DNA of 38,422 bases from a virus (IMGVR_UViG_3300044820_000057:1-38422); one strand, 5' to 3'; positions 13,832 to 35,526 are shown, numbered from the stretch's first letter. Numbers and translations: made by a program. The notes: a model not told the origin generated them from the sequence alone.

Positions 13832-15988
13832 ATGTCCACGTGGACATACCGCACAACCCTGGGTAGCGGTTTCGGCACGCACCAGACCCGCAGCCGTAAC
13901 GGGACCACGGTGTGTTTCCGTGTCGGCACCGCGTACCGGTCTGCGGATGGCGGCACGACGTGGAGCGCGCCGGCCAGCTTGCTGGACGGCGGCGCCGGCT
14001 CCGTGCTCGCGCCCACCGCGGGCAAATGGAATATTGCCGCATACCCGGGCTTCGGCTGCTACGTGTCCACGGATGATGGCCTCAACTACAACAACATTTC
14101 CAGCGGCTTCATTTCCGCGCAGTCTAGCAATGCGATCACGGATGGCGCCGGCTCATCCATCTTCCTGGGCGCAGGTAGCGCCGTGGTGGCGTGGTCTACC
14201 GACAGCGGCGCGACATGGCACAACACGAGCAGCCCCCCGTGGGCCCCGTCATTTCCATCGCAGGCGACCACCTGCTGCTGGGACGGTACCCAGTTTGTTA
14301 TGCTTCTGCGCAACGGCAGTGCGTTGGACATCTACACCGCCCCGGGCGGCTTCAGTTCCGGCACGGGCCCGGTGTGGACGCTGGCGCAGTCGGGCACCCC
14401 GGCCGCGGGCGCTATCATTTCTGCGGCGTTGGTGGACGGGAACGTCGCATACCTACCCGGCGTCGGCTACATTGCCACGTGCGTGGGAAATTTCCCGACC
14501 ACGCAGCAAGGCATAGTCATTGCCTCCACGCTGGCCGGCCTCTACACCGCGCCCGTCGTCACTCCCACAGGCTGGACTTCCGGCGCCGGGGTACAGGGCG
14601 TATGGGCGGCCAATGGCGCCATTTTCGTTGCCGAGTCTAACGGCAAATTGCATCGGTCCACGGATGGCGGCACCACGTGGAGCACGGAAACCACCAACCT
14701 GCCCACGTCCACGTCCAACGTGGTCAATTTTGCCTTTGACTCGGTTGCCACCAAGTACATCGTTATCAATGCCGCGGGTGAAGTGTCCAACGCAGACAGC
14801 GGCGTGCTGGTGCCCAACGTCGTGGGCCAGCTGCAGGCGACCGCGCAGGCCAACATCATCAGCGCCGGCTATACCGTCGGCGTCGTGTCCACGGGCACCA
14901 GCCTGACGGTTCCCCTGGGCTACGTCATCAGCCAAAACCCGGTTGGGGGCGTCCTCGACCCGCCGGGCACCGCGGTGGACCTCGTGGTGTCTTCCGGGCC
15001 GCCATCGTTCACGGTGCCCAGTGTCGTGGGCTACCCGTACCCGGTGGCCGTGTCGGTCCTGTCCGCTGTCACCCTCGTGGTGGGCACGGTCACCGACATA
15101 CACAGCGAGACGGTGCCCCCGGGCTCCATCATCGCGCAGGCGCCGCTGGCGGGCACCCCCGCATTCATCGGGCAGGCCATCAACCTGACGCGCTCGCTGG
15201 GCTCCAGCTTCAAGGTGGTCCCCAACATCGTGGGGGATACCATCAGCGCCGCAGCGCAGGCGCTGCTGGACGCGGGGCTGCTGCTGGGCGATGTCACCAT
15301 AGACACGTCCGGCGCCGGCACTGTGGGCGCCGTGGTGTCGCAGGGCGTCCCGGCCGGCGCGCTGGTGCAGCCGGGCACGCGTGTGTCTGCGGTGCTCGCG
15401 GCGCTCGTGGGGCCTTTCAACGTTGACCGCACTGTCATTTCGCAGTACGCCAACAGCCCCACGCTGCTGCGCCTCGTGCATAACATGCAGGACTACATTG
15501 ACCCGCGCGCGAACCTGACAACCTTCTATGACTACGTGTGGAACGTGGACACCGCGGTGGGCTTCGGGCTCGACATTTGGGGGCGCATCGTGGGCGTGTC
15601 GCGCCTACTCAAGATCCCCAACACGGCCAACCTTTTCGGCTTCGAAAATTCGGACATCCCGCCCGACTGGCAGCCCTTCAACCAGGGCACCTTCTACACC
15701 GGCGCGGAAGCCTCGCAAGCGTACCTGCTGCCGGACGATGTCTACCGGACGTTGATCCTGACCAAAGCGCTGGCCAACATCGTGGCCACGAGCGCGGCAT
15801 CCCTCAACCAGCTGTTGCGCAACCTCTTCCCCAACCGCGGGCGCTGCTATGTCATTGACAACGGCGGCATGTCCATGTCGTTTAAATTCGAATTTGCCTT
15901 AAGCGACGCGGAATATGCTATTCTCACGCAGTCTGGCGCCCTTCCACACCCGGCCGGCGTGGCCTATGACGTAATCGTTGCCCCGTAG
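13832..15988 (+). CDS. DUF2612 baseplate wedge protein fused to an Asp-box beta-propeller and three PASTA domains
   Basis: Four SxDxGxTW-type Asp boxes; three VPNVVG...VISQ.P..G.....V.L.VS units (about 14804-15405); C-terminal TVISQYANSP..AVGFGLDIWGRIVGV..L.DD.YR.LI..KA..NI (from about 15416). Confidence 0.8.
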   Translation: MSTWTYRTTLGSGFGTHQTRSRNGTTVCFRVGTAYRSADGGTTWSAPASLLDGGAGSVLAPTAGKWNIAAYPGFGCYVSTDDGLNYNNISSGFISAQSSNAITDGAGSSIFLGAGSAVVAWSTDSGATWHNTSSPPWAPSFPSQATTCCWDGTQFVMLLRNGSALDIYTAPGGFSSGTGPVWTLAQSGTPAAGAIISAALVDGNVAYLPGVGYIATCVGNFPTTQQGIVIASTLAGLYTAPVVTPTGWTSGAGVQGVWAANGAIFVAESNGKLHRSTDGGTTWSTETTNLPTSTSNVVNFAFDSVATKYIVINAAGEVSNADSGVLVPNVVGQLQATAQANIISAGYTVGVVSTGTSLTVPLGYVISQNPVGGVLDPPGTAVDLVVSSGPPSFTVPSVVGYPYPVAVSVLSAVTLVVGTVTDIHSETVPPGSIIAQAPLAGTPAFIGQAINLTRSLGSSFKVVPNIVGDTISAAAQALLDAGLLLGDVTIDTSGAGTVGAVVSQGVPAGALVQPGTRVSAVLAALVGPFNVDRTVISQYANSPTLLRLVHNMQDYIDPRANLTTFYDYVWNVDTAVGFGLDIWGRIVGVSRLLKIPNTANLFGFENSDIPPDWQPFNQGTFYTGAEASQAYLLPDDVYRTLILTKALANIVATSAASLNQLLRNLFPNRGRCYVIDNGGMSMSFKFEFALSDAEYAILTQSGALPHPAGVAYDVIVAP

Positions 15989-15999
15989 GATTGCCCACA

Positions 16000-17238
16000 A
16001 TGCCCGGCCAACCGACACCGCCCCTGATTGTTGAACCGTTCGGCAAAAATGCTGGCGGCTCATTCATCCAGAACCCCATCCCGCTGACCACGTCCAGCCC
16101 GGGGCGCGCGTCGTTTGACCAGGGATTCCCTGCGCTGACGATGACCCCGGAAGTGGCCGGCGGCGTCCCGCCCTACGGCCAGGACGTGAATGGCATCCTG
16201 TACATGGTGACGGCGCACATTGCCGCCCTGCAGGCTGGCCAGCCCTACCTGTACAGCGCCACGCTGTCCACCGCCATGGGCGGCTATGCCGTGGGCACCA
16301 TCCTGGGCATGGCCGACGGTACGGGCCTGTGGATCAACCAGACATCAGGCAACACGACCGACCCGGACGGCGGCAGCGCGGCGGGTTGGCTGCCGGTCTA
16401 CCGGTACGGCTACACGGCTTTGACGGGGCTTACGGGCGGCTCGCGCACGCTGACCGCCGCGGAGGCGCGCAGCGGCGTCATTACCCTGGCGGGCACGCTG
16501 GCGGGCAACCAGACCATTGTGTTGCCCAATACGCTGCAGACTTGGCTGATAGTCAACAACACCAGCGGTGCCTTTACCACCACGGTCAAGACGGCCGCGG
16601 GCACCGGCGTGGTGGTGCCGCAGGGCGGATATGGCGCCCCGGTGCAGGTGTACGGCGAAGGAACGAACATCTACCCCACCGTGGCGCCGCTGACGATTCC
16701 CACCAGCGTATCCCCCACCGCCAACACCTACGTGCTGCGCGACAACCTGGGCAACGTCTACGCGGCTGCGCTCAACCAAAACACGGGGTACGAGACGCCC
16801 ACCATCGGCGCCCTGTTCGTGGAGAATGCGGCGCATGACGGCTTTTTGCGCAAAGTCCACTTGACCGACGTAGAAGCCCAGTTACTGCTGGAAAACATGG
16901 GCGGCCACGTACAGGCCGTCCAAATGTCGGCCGGTGCGTCCGCTGCCAATTTCACGCCCACGGTGGGGCCTTTTGCGACGCCCGGCTATTGTAAGCTGCC
17001 CAACGGGCTGATTTTCCAGTGGGGTAGTTCCGGCTCCATCCCGGCGATCAGCACGGCACACCAGACGTTCCCGCTGGCCTTCCCTATCGCGTGCCTCAAC
17101 ATTCAAATCACGGCCACCGGTGGCGCGGGCACGGCGCAGTCGCACGACCTCGCGGCCAGCAAGAATGCCACGGGCTTCAACCTGACCAATGACGCATCGG
17201 TTGCGTCAACCTTCGATTGGTTCGCCATCGGCTATTGA
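16000..17238 (+). CDS. Tail fibre protein
   Basis: AGGA RBS before ATG 16000; N-terminal anchor GFPALTM.P..AGGVPP.GQD.NGIL; C-terminal GYCKLPNGLIFQWG...FP.AFP..C...WFAIGY (gp53-like) domain. Confidence 0.85.
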   Translation: MPGQPTPPLIVEPFGKNAGGSFIQNPIPLTTSSPGRASFDQGFPALTMTPEVAGGVPPYGQDVNGILYMVTAHIAALQAGQPYLYSATLSTAMGGYAVGTILGMADGTGLWINQTSGNTTDPDGGSAAGWLPVYRYGYTALTGLTGGSRTLTAAEARSGVITLAGTLAGNQTIVLPNTLQTWLIVNNTSGAFTTTVKTAAGTGVVVPQGGYGAPVQVYGEGTNIYPTVAPLTIPTSVSPTANTYVLRDNLGNVYAAALNQNTGYETPTIGALFVENAAHDGFLRKVHLTDVEAQLLLENMGGHVQAVQMSAGASAANFTPTVGPFATPGYCKLPNGLIFQWGSSGSIPAISTAHQTFPLAFPIACLNIQITATGGAGTAQSHDLAASKNATGFNLTNDASVASTFDWFAIGY

Positions 17239-17249
17239 GGAATTCCGCC

Positions 17250-17600
17250 ATGATCCGCAAACTTGCCCTGTCCCTCGTGCTCGCGCTGGTCGCCCTTCCG
17301 GCCGCGGCCGCGTCGCTGTACGTCACCGAGTTTGTGGGCGCGCCGCCCACGTCGGTGTACTACCAGGCCGTGAAGCAGCCGGAAGTGACCACGCAGGTGT
17401 TGAGCATCGGCGGCAGCAGCGTCCAGTCTGCGCCGTTCGGCTCCACCACGGGCATCGTGCGCGTGCAGGCCGATGCGGCGTGCCACATCGTAGTCAACGG
17501 CTCCCCGACGGCGACCAGCACCAGCATGAAGCTGACGGCGGGGCAGACGGAGTATTTCGTGGTCACGCCCGGGCAAATCCTGGCCGTCATCACGGACTAG
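17250..17600 (+). CDS. Small beta-rich protein with Sec signal peptide
   Basis: GAGG RBS; MIRKLALSLVLALVALPAAAA leader followed by a beta-strand-rich mature region. Confidence 0.7.
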   Translation: MIRKLALSLVLALVALPAAAASLYVTEFVGAPPTSVYYQAVKQPEVTTQVLSIGGSSVQSAPFGSTTGIVRVQADAACHIVVNGSPTATSTSMKLTAGQTEYFVVTPGQILAVITD

Positions 17601-17604
17601 CGCC

Positions 17605-17820
17605 ATGCGCGTGTGGCTGTACAGACTCGCGGGCGCCATCTTTGTGCTGACGGTGCTGGCGCATGTCGCGCGCGCGGGGATGCTGTCATCCCCTGGCCAT
17701 CTGATGGGCCCCGGTCCCGGCGTGGGCAGCCCATCGCCCCCGACCAATCACAACATCACCACGGAAGCCGGCGTGGCCATCACCACGGAAGCCGGCGTGG
17801 CCATTCGCACGGAGCAGTAG
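17605..17820 (+). CDS. Small exported protein with ITTEAGVA repeats
   Basis: MRVWLYRLAGAIFVLTVLAHVARA leader; fills the gap between its neighbours with 4-nt spacers. Confidence 0.6.
   Translation: MRVWLYRLAGAIFVLTVLAHVARAGMLSSPGHLMGPGPGVGSPSPPTNHNITTEAGVAITTEAGVAIRTEQ
17755..17802 (+). repeat. 24-bp tandem repeat, two copies (ATCACCACGGAAGCCGGCGTGGCC)
   Basis: Exact in-frame duplication encoding ITTEAGVA twice, followed by a degenerate third unit (IRTEQ). Confidence 0.9.
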
Positions 17821-17824
17821 ACCC

Positions 17825-19018
17825 ATGAAGCGTATCGCACTATTCGCCGGCCTCGCGCTGGCGCTACTCACCGGCACGGCCGGCGCGCAGGTGAAAATCA
17901 GCGCGCTGCCCGCCGGCACCACGTTGGCAGGCACCGAAGCGCTGCCCCTCGTGCAGTCGGGCGTCACCGTACAGAGCACCCCGGCAGCCTTCGGCACTTA
18001 CATCCTGGGCGCGCCCAATTCGGGCAGCCTACTGATCGGCGCCGGTGCGGGCGTCGCGCCGACCACGGACACGGCCCTGACGTGGACTACGGGCACGCAG
18101 ACGCTGACCATGGGCACCACCAGCGTGGCGGCCGTCATCCAGCCCACGCAGCCCACCGGGGCCGCTACGGGTGTCAGTCTGACCGTCAAGGCGGGTCAAG
18201 GTGGCACGACCAACGGCGGCGGCGGCAACATTACCGTCAGCGGCGGCGATCAGGCCGCCGGCACCGCGGGCAACGGCGGCGCGGCCACGGTGCAGGGCGG
18301 TAGCGCGCTGGGCACTGGCAATCGCGCGGGCGGCGCGGCCACCCTCAAGGGCGGCAACGGTTCGGGCTCGTCGGCGGGTGGTGCCGGCGGCATATCGGGC
18401 GGCAACGGCGGCGCTACTGGCAACGGCGGCCCCGCCAACATGAACGGCGGCGCGGGCGGCAGCACGTCAGGCAACGGCGGCAGCATCAACGCCAGCGGCG
18501 GCAATGCCACCACGTCCGGCAACGGCGGCAGCGTGACTTTTACCGGCGGTATTGCGGCGGGCACCACCAAGAACGGCGGCACGCTCGCATTCAACGCGGG
18601 GCAACCTACGTCGGGCGGCACGTCGCTAATCACATTCTCCACCAAGAATTTTGATGGCTCCATCAACAACGCGGGCCAGTTCGACAGCACGGGGAAGTTT
18701 ATTACCTTCCAGGCCGTCGCTGACCAATCGTACAGCCGGCAGACGCCCACGACGGGCTTTGCCATCACCATCGGCAACCAGAATGCAAGACTCGTGTTGC
18801 ATCCGGCTGGTACCCTTGCCACGGGCACCGTCACGATGCCAGCCGCGCCGATTGACGGGCAGTTGGTGGAAGTGATGAGTGACCAGGCAGTCACGACGCT
18901 GACGGTTTCGGCAAATGCGGGGCAGACCATTGCGAATCCGCCCACCACGCTGGCCGCCGGTACGGGCTTTGGATACCTCTACTGCGCCGCTGACACCGAA
19001 TGGTACCGGCGCTTCTAG
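17825..19018 (+). CDS. Signal-peptide-bearing Gly-rich fibre/adhesin-like protein
   Basis: GGAG RBS; MKRIALFAGLALALLTGTAGA leader; QVKISALPA; repeated GNGG/GG units about 15-16 aa apart; C-terminal PAGTLATGTVTMPAAPIDGQ..WYR domain. Confidence 0.7.
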   Translation: MKRIALFAGLALALLTGTAGAQVKISALPAGTTLAGTEALPLVQSGVTVQSTPAAFGTYILGAPNSGSLLIGAGAGVAPTTDTALTWTTGTQTLTMGTTSVAAVIQPTQPTGAATGVSLTVKAGQGGTTNGGGGNITVSGGDQAAGTAGNGGAATVQGGSALGTGNRAGGAATLKGGNGSGSSAGGAGGISGGNGGATGNGGPANMNGGAGGSTSGNGGSINASGGNATTSGNGGSVTFTGGIAAGTTKNGGTLAFNAGQPTSGGTSLITFSTKNFDGSINNAGQFDSTGKFITFQAVADQSYSRQTPTTGFAITIGNQNARLVLHPAGTLATGTVTMPAAPIDGQLVEVMSDQAVTTLTVSANAGQTIANPPTTLAAGTGFGYLYCAADTEWYRRF

Positions 19019-19032
19019 ACTGAGGGCGAATC

Positions 19033-20103
19033 ATGCGCAAAGTATTAGGGGTCGTCATTCTGTTGGCGGCTTCAGGGGTTCATGCTGCCCCTAACGTGCT
19101 GAACAACTCCGCACACGCGGCCGGCAACATCGCCCCGGCCATCAATGTGGTGCTAGGCGCCGGGCACGTAGACACTGACATTTTTGTTGACATGTCCTCG
19201 CTGAGCCAAACCGGCGCGGATTCCAACATTGTGGCGCTGGCCACCGATACCGGGCACACCAATTACTCCGCGGCGAACAACGCGCCCACCAACCACGCGC
19301 CTTATGCGCTGACCTCCAACAGTTACAGCGGGTGGTCCCCCTCTACCGATCAAAGCGCGTACGCCACGTCCATTGCCAACGGGCTGGCCTCATCGTGGGC
19401 GTTTTGCCCCTTCCCTTCTGCGTTCCCCGCCGGCACTCCTCCGCCCGTCGTGGACACCACCATTTTGCAGACCGGCTCGACGTGCTTTAGCTCCGCGGGC
19501 AGTGGCGGCCTTGAATTCAACATTCCCGCCAATTACAAGGGGCTTGACACGTCCAGCCCATCGGGCGGCACGGCGACCTTCAGCGGCCTACTCATGGGCT
19601 TGAAGTACAACCACCCCACGTGGAACTGGCAAGACATCAAAGGCGCGCTGCGCCAGACGGCCAGCAATTGGGCGACGGGCTGGGCCACGGGCACGGGCTT
19701 CGGGGACATCAACTACGATACGGCCAACGCGGTGGCCTCGTCATCGGCCATCTACCTGCAGGGCCCACTGGTCAACGTCACGCAGACCAGCGGCAACACC
19801 TACACGGCCACGCTCTACCCGTACCGCCAGACCCGGCGCGTCAACGAGGCCGTCTATGTGGTTTCGACCAGCTACAGCTGGCCGGCGAAAAATGAATATA
19901 CGTTGGCGGACATCACCGCGTCCGGCGCCACGCTACTTTACACTTCCAACGGAACCGACATAAACCCCACGTTTTCCTTTGCGCTCCACCTACCTGTTGG
20001 TAATTATTACGTGATGGGCTTCACACTTGATGGCTCTGGCGGCTACTCGCGCGTGGACGGATACACGCCAAACACGGTTGCGGTGCTGGCCACTTGCCAT
20101 TGA
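19033..20103 (+). CDS. Secreted protein with a divergent subtilase (S8)-like C-terminal motif
   Basis: GAGG RBS; MRKVLGVVILLAASGVHA leader; SPSGGTATFSGLLMGLKYNHPTWNWQDIKGALRQTA...GFGDIN resembles the end of the subtilisin catalytic domain. Confidence 0.5.
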   Translation: MRKVLGVVILLAASGVHAAPNVLNNSAHAAGNIAPAINVVLGAGHVDTDIFVDMSSLSQTGADSNIVALATDTGHTNYSAANNAPTNHAPYALTSNSYSGWSPSTDQSAYATSIANGLASSWAFCPFPSAFPAGTPPPVVDTTILQTGSTCFSSAGSGGLEFNIPANYKGLDTSSPSGGTATFSGLLMGLKYNHPTWNWQDIKGALRQTASNWATGWATGTGFGDINYDTANAVASSSAIYLQGPLVNVTQTSGNTYTATLYPYRQTRRVNEAVYVVSTSYSWPAKNEYTLADITASGATLLYTSNGTDINPTFSFALHLPVGNYYVMGFTLDGSGGYSRVDGYTPNTVAVLATCH

Positions 20104-20143: not shown

Positions 20144-20419
20144 ATGTCCGACCAGCTACCCAGTATTCAGCGCATGTTGGGCGCAATCGACGCGCGCCAA
20201 GATGCCCAGGAAGCGGCCATTGGCCATGTGCAAAACACGGTCAGCGGGCTGGACGGCAAGGTGGACAGGATCCTGTTGCACCTTGAGCACCAGAAGGGCC
20301 AGCAGATAGGGCAGCGCCGTACGTTTGCGGCCATGGCGGCCATCGTCGGGGCGGTGTTCGGTGTCGCGGGCGAAGTGGCCGCGCAGTGGTTTACGAACGG
20401 GGGCCAAGGGCGGCATTGA
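20144..20419 (+). CDS. Coiled-coil protein with C-terminal TM helix (holin/antiholin-like)
   Basis: Heptad-like N-terminus, then TFAAMAAIVGAVFGVAG; sits at the start of the lysis region. Confidence 0.55.
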   Translation: MSDQLPSIQRMLGAIDARQDAQEAAIGHVQNTVSGLDGKVDRILLHLEHQKGQQIGQRRTFAAMAAIVGAVFGVAGEVAAQWFTNGGQGRH

Positions 20420-21044
20420 ACGCGTCGCGCAGGTGCTGGCGATCGGCCAGGCCTTGCGTGCCCCCGTTGACGATGCGCGTAATGCTGACGAAGTCGGCAC
20501 CGTCATCGTCGTTGGGTTCGTCCAGTGCCAGCCGGTTCAACTCGGGCCGCTGCGCCCACCACGCGGCGCTGGCGTTGGCCGCCACCGCCTTGGTGCATAG
20601 CCGGTCGGGGCACAGCATGACCAGCGGGTCATTTATCAACTTGGCCACCGCAGCATAGTTTGCCCGCCCCGTGACCATGAACACCCCGCGCCCCCGGTAC
20701 TTGTAGCCGTCACCCGACTCTGGCGGCCCGTTGCCCATGCGGTTGGCGTACACGAAGTCCGCCAGGCCCTGCGGGTTGTTGGCGTATGGCAGGGCGGCCG
20801 CCACCGTCGGAAAGCGCTTGGGCCACACCTGCACGAGCCGGTCGGCGCTGTAGACCAACGACTCGGCCAGGCGGGTGAATTGGGCCGACTCGTGCGCGCC
20901 CTGCGCTAGAAACTCCACGGCGTAATCGCGGTTCGCTGCGATGCCCCACAGCAGCATGGCGTCATTTAGCGCGGCCGCCCACCCGACGGGATCCGGGCAG
21001 CGCGGGGCCGCGCTGTGTAATTGGTCGGGCGTTATGGCAAACAT
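20391..21044 (-). CDS. Endolysin, glycoside hydrolase family 19
   Basis: FLAQGAHES..F..L.ESL.YS, YANRMGNG...GDGYKYRGRG...TGRANY, ITRIVNGG..GL.DR. Likely start is MFAITPDQL. Confidence 0.9.
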   Translation of the reverse strand: MFAITPDQLHSAAPRCPDPVGWAAALNDAMLLWGIAANRDYAVEFLAQGAHESAQFTRLAESLVYSADRLVQVWPKRFPTVAAALPYANNPQGLADFVYANRMGNGPPESGDGYKYRGRGVFMVTGRANYAAVAKLINDPLVMLCPDRLCTKAVAANASAAWWAQRPELNRLALDEPNDDDGADFVSITRIVNGGTQGLADRQHLRDAFNAALGPRS

Positions 21045-21101
21045 GCGGGGGCTAAGATACACTGATGGCTCATTTGCCGCCACCCTCTGGAGGGTCTAGC
21101 C

Positions 21102-21292: not shown

Positions 21293-21766
21293 ATGTTCAA
21301 GTCCCTACGCTTCGGCCCCCTCGTGCCCATGTTCGCCCTGCTCGTGCTGGCCCTCGTGGCCGGCGCCCTGACCGGCTGCGCCACCCTGTCGGCGCCGCAG
21401 AATCAGGCCGTTGAACAAATCACGGTCCAGTACGCAACGGGCAAATTCATTGAAGCCAAGCCGACCGGCCCGGAGCGCGCCGCGCGCGCCGCGCAGGTGA
21501 AGGCCGTTGCCCTGTCGGTCAAGTCGGTGGCGGCGTCGGATAGCGCCACGATTGCTTCGCTGTCGGAACTGGCGCTGTCCAAGGTGGCCACGGCCAACCT
21601 GCAGCCGTCTGACCGGCTGCTGGCGCAGTCGCTGGTCACGGCCGTGGTCAACGAACTGTCCGCCCGCGTGGCCGGCGGCGTGCTGACCCCGGAAAACCGC
21701 GTGGTTGTCACGCAGATGCTGGACTGGGTGATTGCCGCCGCGGACGCGTACGCCCCCGGTGCGTAG
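21293..21766 (+). CDS. Lipoprotein in the lysis cassette
   Basis: Hydrophobic leader ending in the lipobox LTG-C; helical Ala-rich mature part. Confidence 0.7.
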   Translation: MFKSLRFGPLVPMFALLVLALVAGALTGCATLSAPQNQAVEQITVQYATGKFIEAKPTGPERAARAAQVKAVALSVKSVAASDSATIASLSELALSKVATANLQPSDRLLAQSLVTAVVNELSARVAGGVLTPENRVVVTQMLDWVIAAADAYAPGA

Positions 21767-33213: not shown

Positions 33214-33545
33214 TGGCGCGAAGCCAATACGAGCGCAGCGCGGCGTATAGACGGACCCCACGCGGGGCCTATGCGAAGCACCGGGAAAACGCCAAGCGCC
33301 GCGGCGTGGCCTTCCGGCTGACGTTTAAGCAATGGATGGGCATCTGGGCCCTGTCCGGCCACTGGCACGAGCGTGGGTGTAGCCCCTACCAGTTTGTTAT
33401 GTGCCGGCACTTCGACTTAGGCGCGTACGAAGTGGGCAACGTGTACATCGCCCAGAACCGGCACAACCTGCACGAATCAACGTGGACGCGCCACCTGCGC
33501 GGGGCTCCGCAGTCCCGGGCAGGTGGCGTTGACCTGACCCCTTAA
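33213..33545 (+). CDS. HNH-like endonuclease
   Basis: NAKRRG..F.LTF..W, MCR..D.GAYE.GNV.....N motifs; TGATG coupling. Confidence 0.7.
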
Positions 33546-35092
33546 GGGTGCGCCACCATCCAATCATGGATGACCTTGCCGGCGCCGTCGGTCGGCGTGC
33601 CCGCAGCATCCTTGACCAGCACGAAGTCCGGATTTCCCCACACGTCCCACGACCAGGCAATGCCGCTGGCGCCGGTCTTGTCCAGCCATGCCGTGACGTT
33701 GCTGACAAACTGGTCACCCACGGTGCCGGCGACATTGTGCCCGCCAAACTCCGTCACGATGACCGGGACACCGGCGGCCAGGATGCCTTCCAGCGCGGTG
33801 TATGCGGCCTGCCCTAGATCCGGCAGCGCGTAGGCGGCCGTCCCGTAGGCGGCGCCATAAGCCGGATACCCGTGCCACACCGCAGCGACCTGGCCCAGCG
33901 GGTCCGTGATGCGGTTGGCCAGCCACGCGCGCAAGTCCTTTGCGTAGTTGCGGTCAGACACGAGAATGACGTTGGTCGCGCCCGTCGCGCGTATCGTGTC
34001 GGTCATCTGCTGGAATCCAGCAATGGCCCACGTCTGCGTCATGCTGCCGGCGGTATTCAGGAAGCGCCCCACCGCGCCGCCATTGCGCTGCGCCTGCCCG
34101 ACATCGGCCGGAACCGTCGGGCCGAAGCTGTCTAGATACGGCTCGTTGAACAGTTCAAACATGACGGCCGGGTTGCCCTTGTACGCGGTGGCAACCTCTT
34201 TCCAGAACTGCAAATCGGTGTCGGTGTTGGCAAAGCTGCCCTGCCCATCCGGGGTGAATGGCACTTTGCCGGTCTGGCCGGTGACGGTGAAGTACGGCGC
34301 GGACCAATGCAAATCCAGGATGACGTACAAGCCCGCCGCGTTGGCCGCGGTAACGGCCGCCTGCACGGAAGCCTGGTACCCGCGCACCTTGGCAGGGTCC
34401 GCTGCAATCGCCTTGCCCGCGGCGTTGTAGGTCATCAGCCCCAACCAGCTGGCGGCGTTCAACGGGAAGCGTACGGCGTTGGCTTTCCACGTCTTGATGG
34501 CGGCGTAGTTGGGCGCGCTGCCCAATCCGCTGTCGCCCCAATAGTTGTACGTCCCGTCGGCATTCTTTGCCCACTGGTGAACGGCCGTGGCTTCCAGCCC
34601 CGAGACGTTGACCCCGCGCAGCTGGATGACCGCGCCGTTGCCGTCCACGAATTTGGACCCCTTGACCGACACGGCAAGCGTGCCGGCCGGGGGCGGTGTC
34701 GGCGTTATGACAGGCGGCGTTGTGACCGGGGGCGTTGTCGTGGCCGGCGCGAAGTACGGGGCCAGTTGTTTGGCCAGCGTCGGAATGTCAATGGTGGCCG
34801 GGGCACCGGCAGGCCCCGTGGCGCCCGCAGGGCCCTGTGCACCGGCCGGACCCGGGATACCCTGGGGGCCAGCAGCCCCCGCGGCACCGGCCGGCCCAGG
34901 GACGCCCTGCGGCCCCTGCGCACCGGTCGGGCCCGGGATGCCCTGTGGGCCGGGGGCGCCGGGTGCGCCCGCCGGGCCCGGGGGCAGCAGCGTGGTGTCA
35001 ATCGTGACCGTCGCGGGCACGGTCACGGTCTGGGCAATGGCAGCCGTCGAAATGACGGCGCCGGCAATCAGGGCCGCAAGTATCTTGCGCAT
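33542..35092 (-). CDS. Secreted GH5 glycoside hydrolase with collagen-like stalk
   Basis: AGGAG RBS; signal peptide [20 protein letters not shown]; 20 consecutive G-X-Y triplets; TTPP linker; GH5 motifs LRGVN, VRFPL, VILDLHW, FELFNEP, H.Y, VTEFG, AWSW. Confidence 0.9.
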
Positions 35093-35127
35093 GGTCGGGT
35101 ACTCCTGTGGGAATACCCGCATGATGC

Positions 35128-35526
35128 CTAGCGGATGATAGACCCGTCAACCAGCGTCCATTGCGTGGAACAGTGCTGCCCGCGCCCGCTTCGCACGCAC
35201 ACCTTCTGCTGCAGGAATCGCGCGGTCAGCAGCGCCGTGGTGCCGTCGGGCGCGATCAGCGGGTAGCCGTCGAAGTCCAGCACGTATGCCTGCTGCGCGG
35301 ATGAGTAGGTGACGCCATTTACCGACAGTCGCACGAAGTTGCCATAGGCGGCCGACAGGCTGACCACGTCCCCGGTGCTGTTGGGGACGTTGCCGCAGTA
35401 GCGGGTCAGGCCGCAGGGCGTGGCGCCCAGGTAGATGGCGGGCAGCGACTGGGCCGCAGCGGGGTCAGAGGCAAACCCCAGCCCCAGGGTGAAGGCCAGC
35501 ACGAGTGCAGCGAAAAAGTTACGCAT
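35128..35526 (-). CDS. Secreted small beta protein with two Cys pairs
   Basis: AAGGA RBS; leader [25 protein letters not shown]; CGLTRYC and [10 protein letters not shown]. Confidence 0.65.

What the first reader, a model, noticed from the sequence alone, without database searches (positions are those of the whole stretch)
17250..20103. Four consecutive Sec-exported proteins in the tail-fibre locus: candidate exported fibre/accessory system
Seen: all four tightly packed genes between the tail fibre and the lysis genes begin with basic-hydrophobic-AxA leaders (..LPAAAA, ..HVARA, ..TAGA, ..GVHA). The mature parts look like virion-type parts: a small beta protein, a TE-G repeat peptide, a KISALP-headed Gly-rich fibre and a subtilase-like protein. 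Known: tailed-phage virions assemble in the cytoplasm and their structural proteins normally lack signal peptides. Inference: these late proteins are exported and either join the virion only at lysis, build a phage-encoded surface appendage on the host, or act as receptor decoys. This is my best candidate for an undescribed system in the window.
Basis: partly seen in the sequence, partly recalled or inferred. Interest (0 to 1): 0.82.

Follow-up and report, generated by a model that had tools for sequence, protein, structure and literature searches.

The report
Exported phage head-spike and fibre kit
An uncultured tailed phage carries four neighbouring genes whose proteins start with predicted bacterial export signals, and three of them match a spike-base, adaptor and fibre set that another phage encodes without such signals, so these parts are likely made outside the cytoplasm and would join the virus head only when the cell bursts, a route I found described for no tailed phage.

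Summary
Observation confirmed: A (17250-17600), B (17605-17820), C (17825-19018) and D (19033-20103) all begin with Sec-type leaders (own heuristic; no SignalP). The leaders are add-ons: for A and C the predicted cut falls where leaderless relatives start. A is a small beta-sandwich of a huge, mostly leaderless phage family. In all 10 other distinct cassette loci, B and a KISALP-headed fibre follow A, and all 10 lie among packaging or head genes; only this window has the set at the tail. Cultured phage DSL-LC05 encodes a leaderless A-B-x-C set between portal and capsid genes; its B starts with an IGIGLG motif like the RcGTA head-fibre anchor. A itself shows no detectable kinship to the RcGTA base. 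D has a subtilase fold with conserved Ser177, but it is an optional passenger (2 of 11 loci). Best reading (0.6): exported capsid spike plus fibre that dock on virions at lysis. Rival (0.25): host-surface appendage, since some relatives add a lipoprotein with the same repeats. Binding, export and virion location are untested here; the complex-prediction queue was full. This scan noted similar leader-bearing fibre cassettes on other DNA (106 findings); ten paper searches found no description.

The parts
17250..17600 (+). Gene A, 116 aa: 21-aa predicted leader plus 95-aa beta-sandwich; likely capsid-surface spike base
   Evidence: AlphaFold pLDDT 87.7, all-beta mature part; family of 4783 clusters at 50% identity, 11 of the best 150 with a leader call; weak fold likeness to the PM2 spike P1, Z 5.4, rmsd 3.2, 75 aligned
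17250..17312 (+). Predicted Sec leader of A; the cut gives SLYVTEF, where leaderless relatives begin MA(S/T/K)LY(I/V)TEF
17605..17820 (+). Gene B, 71 aa: 24-aa predicted leader, conserved G-x-x-x-x-G-x-L-M motif, Gly/Pro linker, then TE-G repeats; likely adaptor between A and C
   Evidence: found directly behind A in all leader-bearing loci; leaderless counterpart in DSL-LC05
17755..17817 (+). Two and a half ITTEAGVA repeats of B; predicted docking site for the KISALP head
   Evidence: sequence; similar repeats end the gene just before a KISALP-type fibre in Erwinia phage Deimos-Minion and occur in the gene after it in QHHSV-1
17825..19018 (+). Gene C, 397 aa: 21-aa predicted leader, KISALP head, Gly-rich shaft, C-terminal beta-sandwich; likely trimeric receptor-binding fibre
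   Evidence: head matches the N-termini of annotated tail fibres of cultured phages, weak E-values; C-terminal part resembles phage fibre-tip domains, TM 0.55-0.75 between predicted models; homologue in L018 ends in a Peptidase_S74 chaperone, E 4.9e-13
19033..20103 (+). Gene D, 356 aa: 18-aa predicted leader, compact subtilase-fold domain (about residues 19-240) without propeptide, C-terminal beta domain; optional passenger
   Evidence: pLDDT 95; Foldseek probability 1.0 to subtilases; Z 14.6, rmsd 3.4, 192 aligned; Ser177 99 of 100, His28 89 of 95, Asp53 83 of 96 rows
15991..17238 (+). Context: leaderless tail fibre just upstream; in four complete relatives this spot is followed by a leader-bearing 520-770 aa fibre instead of A-D

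Best explanation
A, B and C are likely a capsid spike kit (base, adaptor, fibre) whose genes carry predicted Sec leaders, so the parts would fold in the periplasm during infection and would dock on finished virions when lysis mixes the two compartments. Steps: (1) shown by sequence: leaders sit on proteins whose leaderless relatives start at the cut site; (2) inferred from textbook Sec biology: export and cleavage by signal peptidase I; (3) inferred from gene order and the DSL-LC05 counterpart: A oligomers bind the capsid surface, B's N-terminal motif plugs into A, and B's TE-G repeats hold the KISALP head of fibre C; (4) inferred: C's tip binds a surface polysaccharide or protein for first, reversible attachment, as RcGTA head fibres do; (5) weakest: D is a co-exported serine hydrolase that is not needed for the kit. 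A likely gain is folding with disulfides and without jamming the cytoplasm.
For: Cut site equals the start of leaderless forms for A and C. A-B-C order kept in all 11 distinct cassette loci, the window included; L009 has A cut by the contig start. 10 of 10 other loci lie in the packaging/head block. Leaderless A genes lie near portal, terminase or major capsid genes in the loci whose neighbours I scanned or read, with MinM2 near a tail fibre gene. Cultured DSL-LC05 has leaderless A (hhalign 92%, E 5.6e-7), a B with AIGIGLGG plus LLxExG repeats, and a KISALP fibre between portal and scaffold genes. [quoted passage not shown] A leader-bearing C homologue has the S74 trimer-folding chaperone of phage fibres. 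4 of 4 complete relatives fetched have a leader-bearing long fibre right after the tail-fibre genes. Cellulophaga phage phi10:1 gp091-094 have leader calls and are annotated 'structural protein' from MS/MS. Mature leader-bearing fibres have even cysteine counts in 22 of 24 and 11.5 Cys per 1000 aa, against 9 of 13 even (4 zeros) and 6.0 in leaderless controls.
Against: A shows no sequence or profile match to the Rcc01079 base family, and fold searches gave only Z <= 5.5, so 'spike base' rests on context. No member of the A family has been placed on a virion by anything I could read. The window's B motif (GMLSSPGHLM) is not the IGLGLG star. The window's own C has one cysteine, so it cannot use intrachain disulfides; the 24 fibres are not independent; and crAss001 has virion disulfides with no mention of signal peptides (PMC10172136, passages). 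L010, L011 and L013 insert a lipoprotein with the same repeats, which suggests a membrane anchor. In 6 loci B has only a short hydrophobic start (L001, L002, L015-L018), which fits cleavable export poorly. The kit is accessory: A in 3 of 32 and the C head in 2 of 32 capsid relatives, 14 of them incomplete.
Confidence: 0.6

Rival explanations
1. The kit was borrowed from a virion spike but now builds a fibre on the surface or in the periplasm of the infected cell (receptor masking, superinfection block, adhesion or decoy). A no longer binds capsid, and a lipoprotein or uncleaved hydrophobic B anchors the fibre.
For: A lipoprotein with TE-S/G repeats between B and C in L010, L011 and L013; short, possibly uncleaved B starts in 6 loci; D also occurs alone in bacterial chromosomes among exported and polysaccharide-type genes, as read from translations; the window has other leader-bearing accessory genes, including a collagen-GH5 protein; leader-bearing A forms mostly one clade, 43 of 46, which could mark a change of role.
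Against: The kit always lies in the late morphogenesis operon, on its strand. No integrase was found among the 45 window proteins scanned (record 76% complete), so a long-lived carrier cell is not evident. This window has no TE-G lipoprotein. The mature A keeps the N-terminal LYxTEF strand of leaderless forms. phi10:1 leader-bearing proteins are annotated as virion proteins.
Confidence: 0.25
2. The leaders are storage or timing devices: the parts stay tethered in the inner membrane (signal-anchor-release style) to keep sticky fibres away from assembling particles, and are freed uncut at lysis.
For: SAR endolysins set the precedent (PMC6116005, passages); short hydrophobic B starts.
Against: Conserved A-x-A cut sites placed exactly at the ancestral N-terminus argue for cleavage; many mature C forms start with Gln.
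Confidence: 0.1
3. The leaders are not used: translation starts downstream and the proteins are ordinary cytoplasmic virion parts.
For: ATG at B M26 and GTG at C V23.
Against: A and D have no such start; most C homologues have D-V-K, D-T-K or Q-T-K there, and the start is not conserved; leaders keep their character while diverging and change mostly at third positions.
Confidence: 0.05

Closest known systems
RcGTA head spike: base Rcc01079 pentamer plus head fibre Rcc01080 (PDB 6TB9; PMC7296036 and PMC5026251, passages seen)
   Same: Small jelly-roll-type gene followed by a partner with a short Gly/hydrophobic N-terminal motif; accessory, patchy, horizontally exchanged; the leaderless DSL-LC05 B carries an IGIGLG motif like the RcGTA anchor.
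   Different: No detectable homology of A to Rcc01079; three parts with a separate adaptor; all parts carry export leaders; the window's B motif differs from the star motif.
Phage DSL-LC05 (OR003940) WJZ48170, WJZ48169, WJZ48167
   Same: Homologues or counterparts of A, B and C in the same order, in the head block.
   Different: No leaders, one extra gene between B and C, no D; function not tested in anything I read.
Cellulophaga phage phi10:1 gp091-gp094 (KC821618)
   Same: A run of leader-bearing late genes behind the tail genes, annotated as structural from MS/MS.
   Different: Bacteroidota siphovirus; no A, B, C-head or D profile hit in the 23.7 kb fetched; the record does not remark on the leaders; the source paper is not held.
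Filamentous phage coat proteins pIII and pVIII (recalled, no call)
   Same: Virion proteins made with signal peptides; pIII is a disulfide-bonded receptor-binding protein.
   Different: Those virions are assembled at the membrane during extrusion; here the head is a cytoplasmic HK97-type capsid released by lysis.
Signal-peptide and SAR endolysins (PMC6116005, passages seen)
   Same: Late proteins of tailed phages exported by host Sec.
   Different: They are lysis enzymes, not particle parts.
Subtilases, MEROPS S8 (for D)
   Same: Fold (Z about 14.5) and the nucleophile Ser position.
   Different: Below the PF00082 threshold, no propeptide, shortened N-terminal part, no Asp on the first strand.

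Membership tests
Sec/SPase I substrates | basic n-region, hydrophobic h-region, A-x-A cut site | tested here: met
   own heuristic with controls, 4 of 4; SignalP not available
Sec/SPase I substrates | export and cleavage in a cell | not testable with these tools
   needs reporter fusions or N-terminomics
RcGTA-type spike base (Rcc01079 family) | sequence or profile homology to Rcc01079 | tested here: not met
   hhalign probability 0.1 and 0.5; the second template had only 4 sequences; its first member matches 6tb9 at E 2.9e-30
RcGTA-type spike base (Rcc01079 family) | small jelly-roll fold | tested here: inconclusive
   all-beta model; best Z 5.5, PM2 spike P1 Z 5.4; 6tb9 not listed
RcGTA-type spike base (Rcc01079 family) | pentamer on capsid vertices | not testable with these tools
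RcGTA-type spike base (Rcc01079 family) | next gene starts with an alternating Leu/Ile-Gly star motif | tested here: inconclusive
   present in DSL-LC05 B; replaced by GMLSSPGHLM in the window
Trimeric phage fibres | modular head-shaft-tip layout with swapped tips | tested here: met
   shared KISALP head, lengths 180-1071 aa, unrelated C-termini; fibre-tip-like C-terminal domain
Trimeric phage fibres | trimer | tested here: inconclusive
   S74 chaperone in the L018 homologue only; no complex prediction obtained
Subtilase S8 | subtilisin fold | tested here: met
Subtilase S8 | nucleophile Ser in the GTS-type helix | tested here: met
   Ser177 aligns with it and is kept in 99 of 100 rows
Subtilase S8 | Asp-His-Ser triad in canonical order | tested here: inconclusive
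   His28 and Asp53 are conserved but come in the order His-Asp; model residue 19 aligns to subtilisin residue 25, which puts Asn/Ser near the Asp32 place (Asp32 recalled); profile alignment of this part failed; no coordinates available
Subtilase S8 | PF00082 gathering score | tested here: not met

The most novel reading that the evidence does not exclude
Many tailed phages build their particles in two compartments: heads and tails in the cytoplasm, and a plug-in kit of spikes, adaptors, fibres and enzymes in the periplasm, joined at lysis through a portable TE-G repeat / KISALP head coupling. Ancestrally cytoplasmic parts were rerouted as a set by gaining leaders, more than once, in myo-, podo- and siphoviruses.
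Probability: 0.5. Interest if true: 0.9.

Novelty: new variant of a known kind. Interest (0 to 1): 0.78.

Why it matters
Tailed-phage particles are taken to be finished in the cytoplasm (textbook knowledge). An assembly step after lysis for exported parts would change how receptor-binding proteins are annotated: leader-bearing late genes are usually filed as host-modifying extras. It would give phages access to periplasmic folding and disulfide chemistry. This locus is unusually testable, because leaderless and leader-bearing versions of the same three parts exist, one set in a cultured phage. The short B/C coupling might also serve as a modular display tag.

Tried and rejected
Pfam and PHROGs gave nothing for A-D; member-wise scans of 21 A relatives gave only one DUF7243 hit, E 1.7e-4. 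PDB sequence searches for A gave nothing significant (G4 spike G, E 0.19), nor for C. Foldseek on A found no PDB match at E <= 0.001; BFVD matches were uncharacterised or unnamed proteins. The RcGTA base was not listed in any fold search, which does not exclude it. No A relative was found in genome contigs by a pattern scan and no D relative in cultured phages. Pattern scans with the broad A alignment and the C-head alignment could not be run. The C-head homologue search returned 8 proteins, the query included and all leader-bearing, so the leaderless control for cysteines is small and hand-picked. His/Asp register of D unresolved. The idea of a fixed four-gene system was rejected, as was a tail-specific location. 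Deimos-Minion gp308 was seen by MS only in crude lysate (PMC6690015, passages), so it is not proof of virion location. Ten paper searches found no paper on exported virion parts of tailed phages; JG068 (PMC3765740) and PMC7476776 were seen as listings only; PMC5723332 passages only count leaders. The library lacks most subscription papers and I read no supplements. Sequencing-run tools were not used.

Full report
Setting. The window is a 38.4 kb virus record, 76% complete, of about 65% GC. It is a contractile-tailed phage with E217-type neck and baseplate genes, a DUF3383 sheath, a family A DNA polymerase, helicase and primase. The host is unknown. The only hint is that D relatives lie in two Steroidobacteraceae assemblies and one named protein record. 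The four genes A, B, C and D follow the tail fibre on the late strand and precede the lysis block. None has a Pfam or PHROG match.

The leaders are real features. It of 4 genes, 1 of 19 virion controls from the same window and 0 of 664 internal pseudo-starts. Leaders are called in 35 of 37 close A homologues and in 78 of 100 D homologues; many D misses begin inside a hydrophobic stretch and look like late start calls (by eye). Leader sequence diverges faster than the mature part (0.38 vs 0.61) but keeps its character, and changes fall mainly on third codon positions. The strongest point: the predicted cut restores the ancestral N-terminus. Mature A starts SLYVTEF, and leaderless relatives start MA(S/T/K)LY(I/V)TEF. 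Mature C starts QVKISALP, and QHHSV-1 and DSL-LC05 start MAQVKISALTP and MADTKISALP. B and C have a possible downstream start just behind the cut, without a clear ribosome-binding site and not conserved.

A. A profile search found 4783 clusters at E <= 0.001; 11 of the best 150 have a leader call, so the family is mostly cytoplasmic. On a FastTree of 186 mature domains (46 leader-bearing, enriched by my first search) the label changes 5 times against 41 in shuffles; 43 of 46 leader forms fall in one branch (support 83, unstarred) and three fall elsewhere. One gain is not excluded, several are possible, and the tree is short and unrooted. The model is a small beta-sandwich. Fold searches give only middling matches: iridovirus ORF158L Z 5.5, PM2 spike P1 Z 5.4, STIV turret protein Z 4.5. 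A does not match the RcGTA base family by profile. Leaderless A genes lie near portal, terminase or major capsid genes, in one case after a tail fibre gene. One A domain is fused to a 552-aa protein that reads like a beta-helical spike (P0282, by eye).

A-B-C is the unit. Counting duplicates once, ten loci show a leader-bearing A (window, L001, L002, L010/L011, L012, L013, L015, L016, L017, L018), and L009 has A cut by the contig start. In all 11, B follows A and a KISALP-headed gene follows B or a lipoprotein after B. The B and C-head profiles were built from these rows, so the hits are by construction; the gene order is the finding. Of 23 other A loci (leaderless in the 17 whose start I read; some too short to hold neighbours) only DSL-LC05 has a C-head hit. 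All 10 non-window cassette loci lie among terminase, portal and head-morphogenesis genes; the window is the exception. Among 32 of the 74 capsid relatives, A occurs in 3 and the C head in 2 (1 of 18 near-complete records each). The kit is therefore accessory and mobile.

The leaderless key. DSL-LC05, a cultured phage of a gammaproteobacterium, has between portal and scaffold genes an A homologue (hhalign 92%), a 52-aa gene with AIGIGLGG near its start and LLCENGDNLVQEDG near its end, one other gene, and a KISALP fibre, none with a leader. [quoted passage not shown] RcapNL and three other Rcc01079-like genes are followed by such a motif. B thus reads as the anchor motif split off from the fibre and joined to TE-G repeats. 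The repeat/head pairing also appears without A: Deimos-Minion gp309, annotated as a virion protein, ends in LLTESG repeats just before the ISGLP-headed fibre gp308. Binding itself was not modelled, because the queue was full.

C. Homologues share about 45 N-terminal residues and then differ, from 180 to 1071 aa. The window's tip resembles phage fibre-tip sandwiches, and the L018 homologue ends in a Peptidase_S74 chaperone. In the four complete relatives I fetched (G002, G008, G009, G010), the gene right after the tail-fibre genes is a leader-bearing 520-770 aa fibre. Exported fibres are thus a trait of this phage group even where A-B-C is absent. Cysteines are even in 22 of 24 mature leader-bearing fibres and about twice as dense as in 13 leaderless controls, of which 9 are even too. 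This fits periplasmic disulfides, but the rows are related, the control is small, and the window's C has one cysteine.

D. The model is confident and has the subtilisin fold over residues 19-240 plus a beta domain. Ser177 aligns with the nucleophile; His28 and Asp53 are conserved but not in canonical order, and there is no propeptide. It is likely a serine hydrolase with a rearranged site, or a dead enzyme. It accompanies A-B-C only here and in L002. It lies among other leader-bearing genes in a podovirus-like (L036) and two siphovirus-like contigs (L037, L038; morphotypes from my reading of the genes) and alone in two chromosomes. It is not needed for the kit.

Precedent. Earlier notes of this scan pointed to Cellulophaga phage phi10:1. 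I checked the record: gp091-094 are annotated as structural from MS/MS, and all four have leader calls, while gp087-090 do not. I could not read the source paper, so the purity of those virions is unchecked. The scan holds 106 findings with my search words, on other DNA; none matched A or D by sequence. These notes are not independent support. Ten literature searches found no description of exported particle parts in tailed phages.

Verdict. The parts descend from cytoplasmic virion decoration and were rerouted as a set. Docking on the virion at lysis is the most likely fate (0.6). A host-surface appendage is the main rival (0.25), backed by the TE-G lipoprotein in some relatives and the short B starts in six loci. 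The structure is of a known kind, a spike with a fibre; the route of manufacture is what appears to be new.

Noticed in passing
window 33542-35122 (-): Leader-bearing collagen-repeat plus GH5 glycoside hydrolase; a GH5 relative lies in L036 behind its exported cassette. Could be a second exported fibre-enzyme.
   Followed up: partly
window 35128-35526 (-): Small leader-bearing protein with four cysteines, just upstream of the collagen-GH5 gene; no Pfam match.
   Followed up: partly
window 13832-15988 (+): Baseplate DUF2612 domain fused behind BNR-like repeats and three PASTA domains (718 aa); in G002 the gene is about 239 aa, and PASTA-like sequence also occurs in G008.
   Followed up: partly
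window 20391-21083 (-): The endolysin is on the strand opposite to the late genes and to the holin-like and lipoprotein genes that flank it; G002 shows the same inversion.
   Followed up: no
window 21293-21766 (+): Lipoprotein (LTGC lipobox) after a small membrane protein; likely part of the lysis block.
   Followed up: no
L010:3317-3502, L011:2140-2325, L013:7145-7357: Lipoprotein carrying TE-S/G repeats inserted between B and C; a possible membrane dock for the fibre.
   Followed up: partly
L001:8356, L002:8363, L015:1213, L016:6655, L017:10309, L018:10345: B forms with only 8-12 hydrophobic residues before the conserved motif, beside A and C with full leaders; how they are exported is unexplained.
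   Followed up: partly
L132:15144-16709 (-), L134:10081-11790, L136:16666-18738, L141:15119-17425 (-): A second class of exported fibre head (A/Q/G-T/L-F/Y-x-x-F-x-P) behind a paralogue of the tail-fibre N-terminus, with a SGTC...FLRGDG.C two-cysteine motif, read in the G002 and G009 fibres and shared with several C homologues.
   Followed up: partly
L015:1380-3162, L017:10485 and 11926: Two KISALP-headed fibres in tandem behind one B, suggesting alternative tips on one adaptor.
   Followed up: no
L127 (G018:C1:10087-10317, -): An A-like domain at the C-terminus of a longer protein directly before a gene that reads like the head maturation protease.
   Followed up: partly
L010:5949-7151, L013:9623-10828: Head-morphogenesis protein with an inserted NUDIX domain.
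   Followed up: no
L039:4397-5512, L040:9992-11155: D homologues stand alone in Steroidobacteraceae chromosomes near genes that read like exopolysaccharide export and TonB-type systems (not scanned).
   Followed up: no
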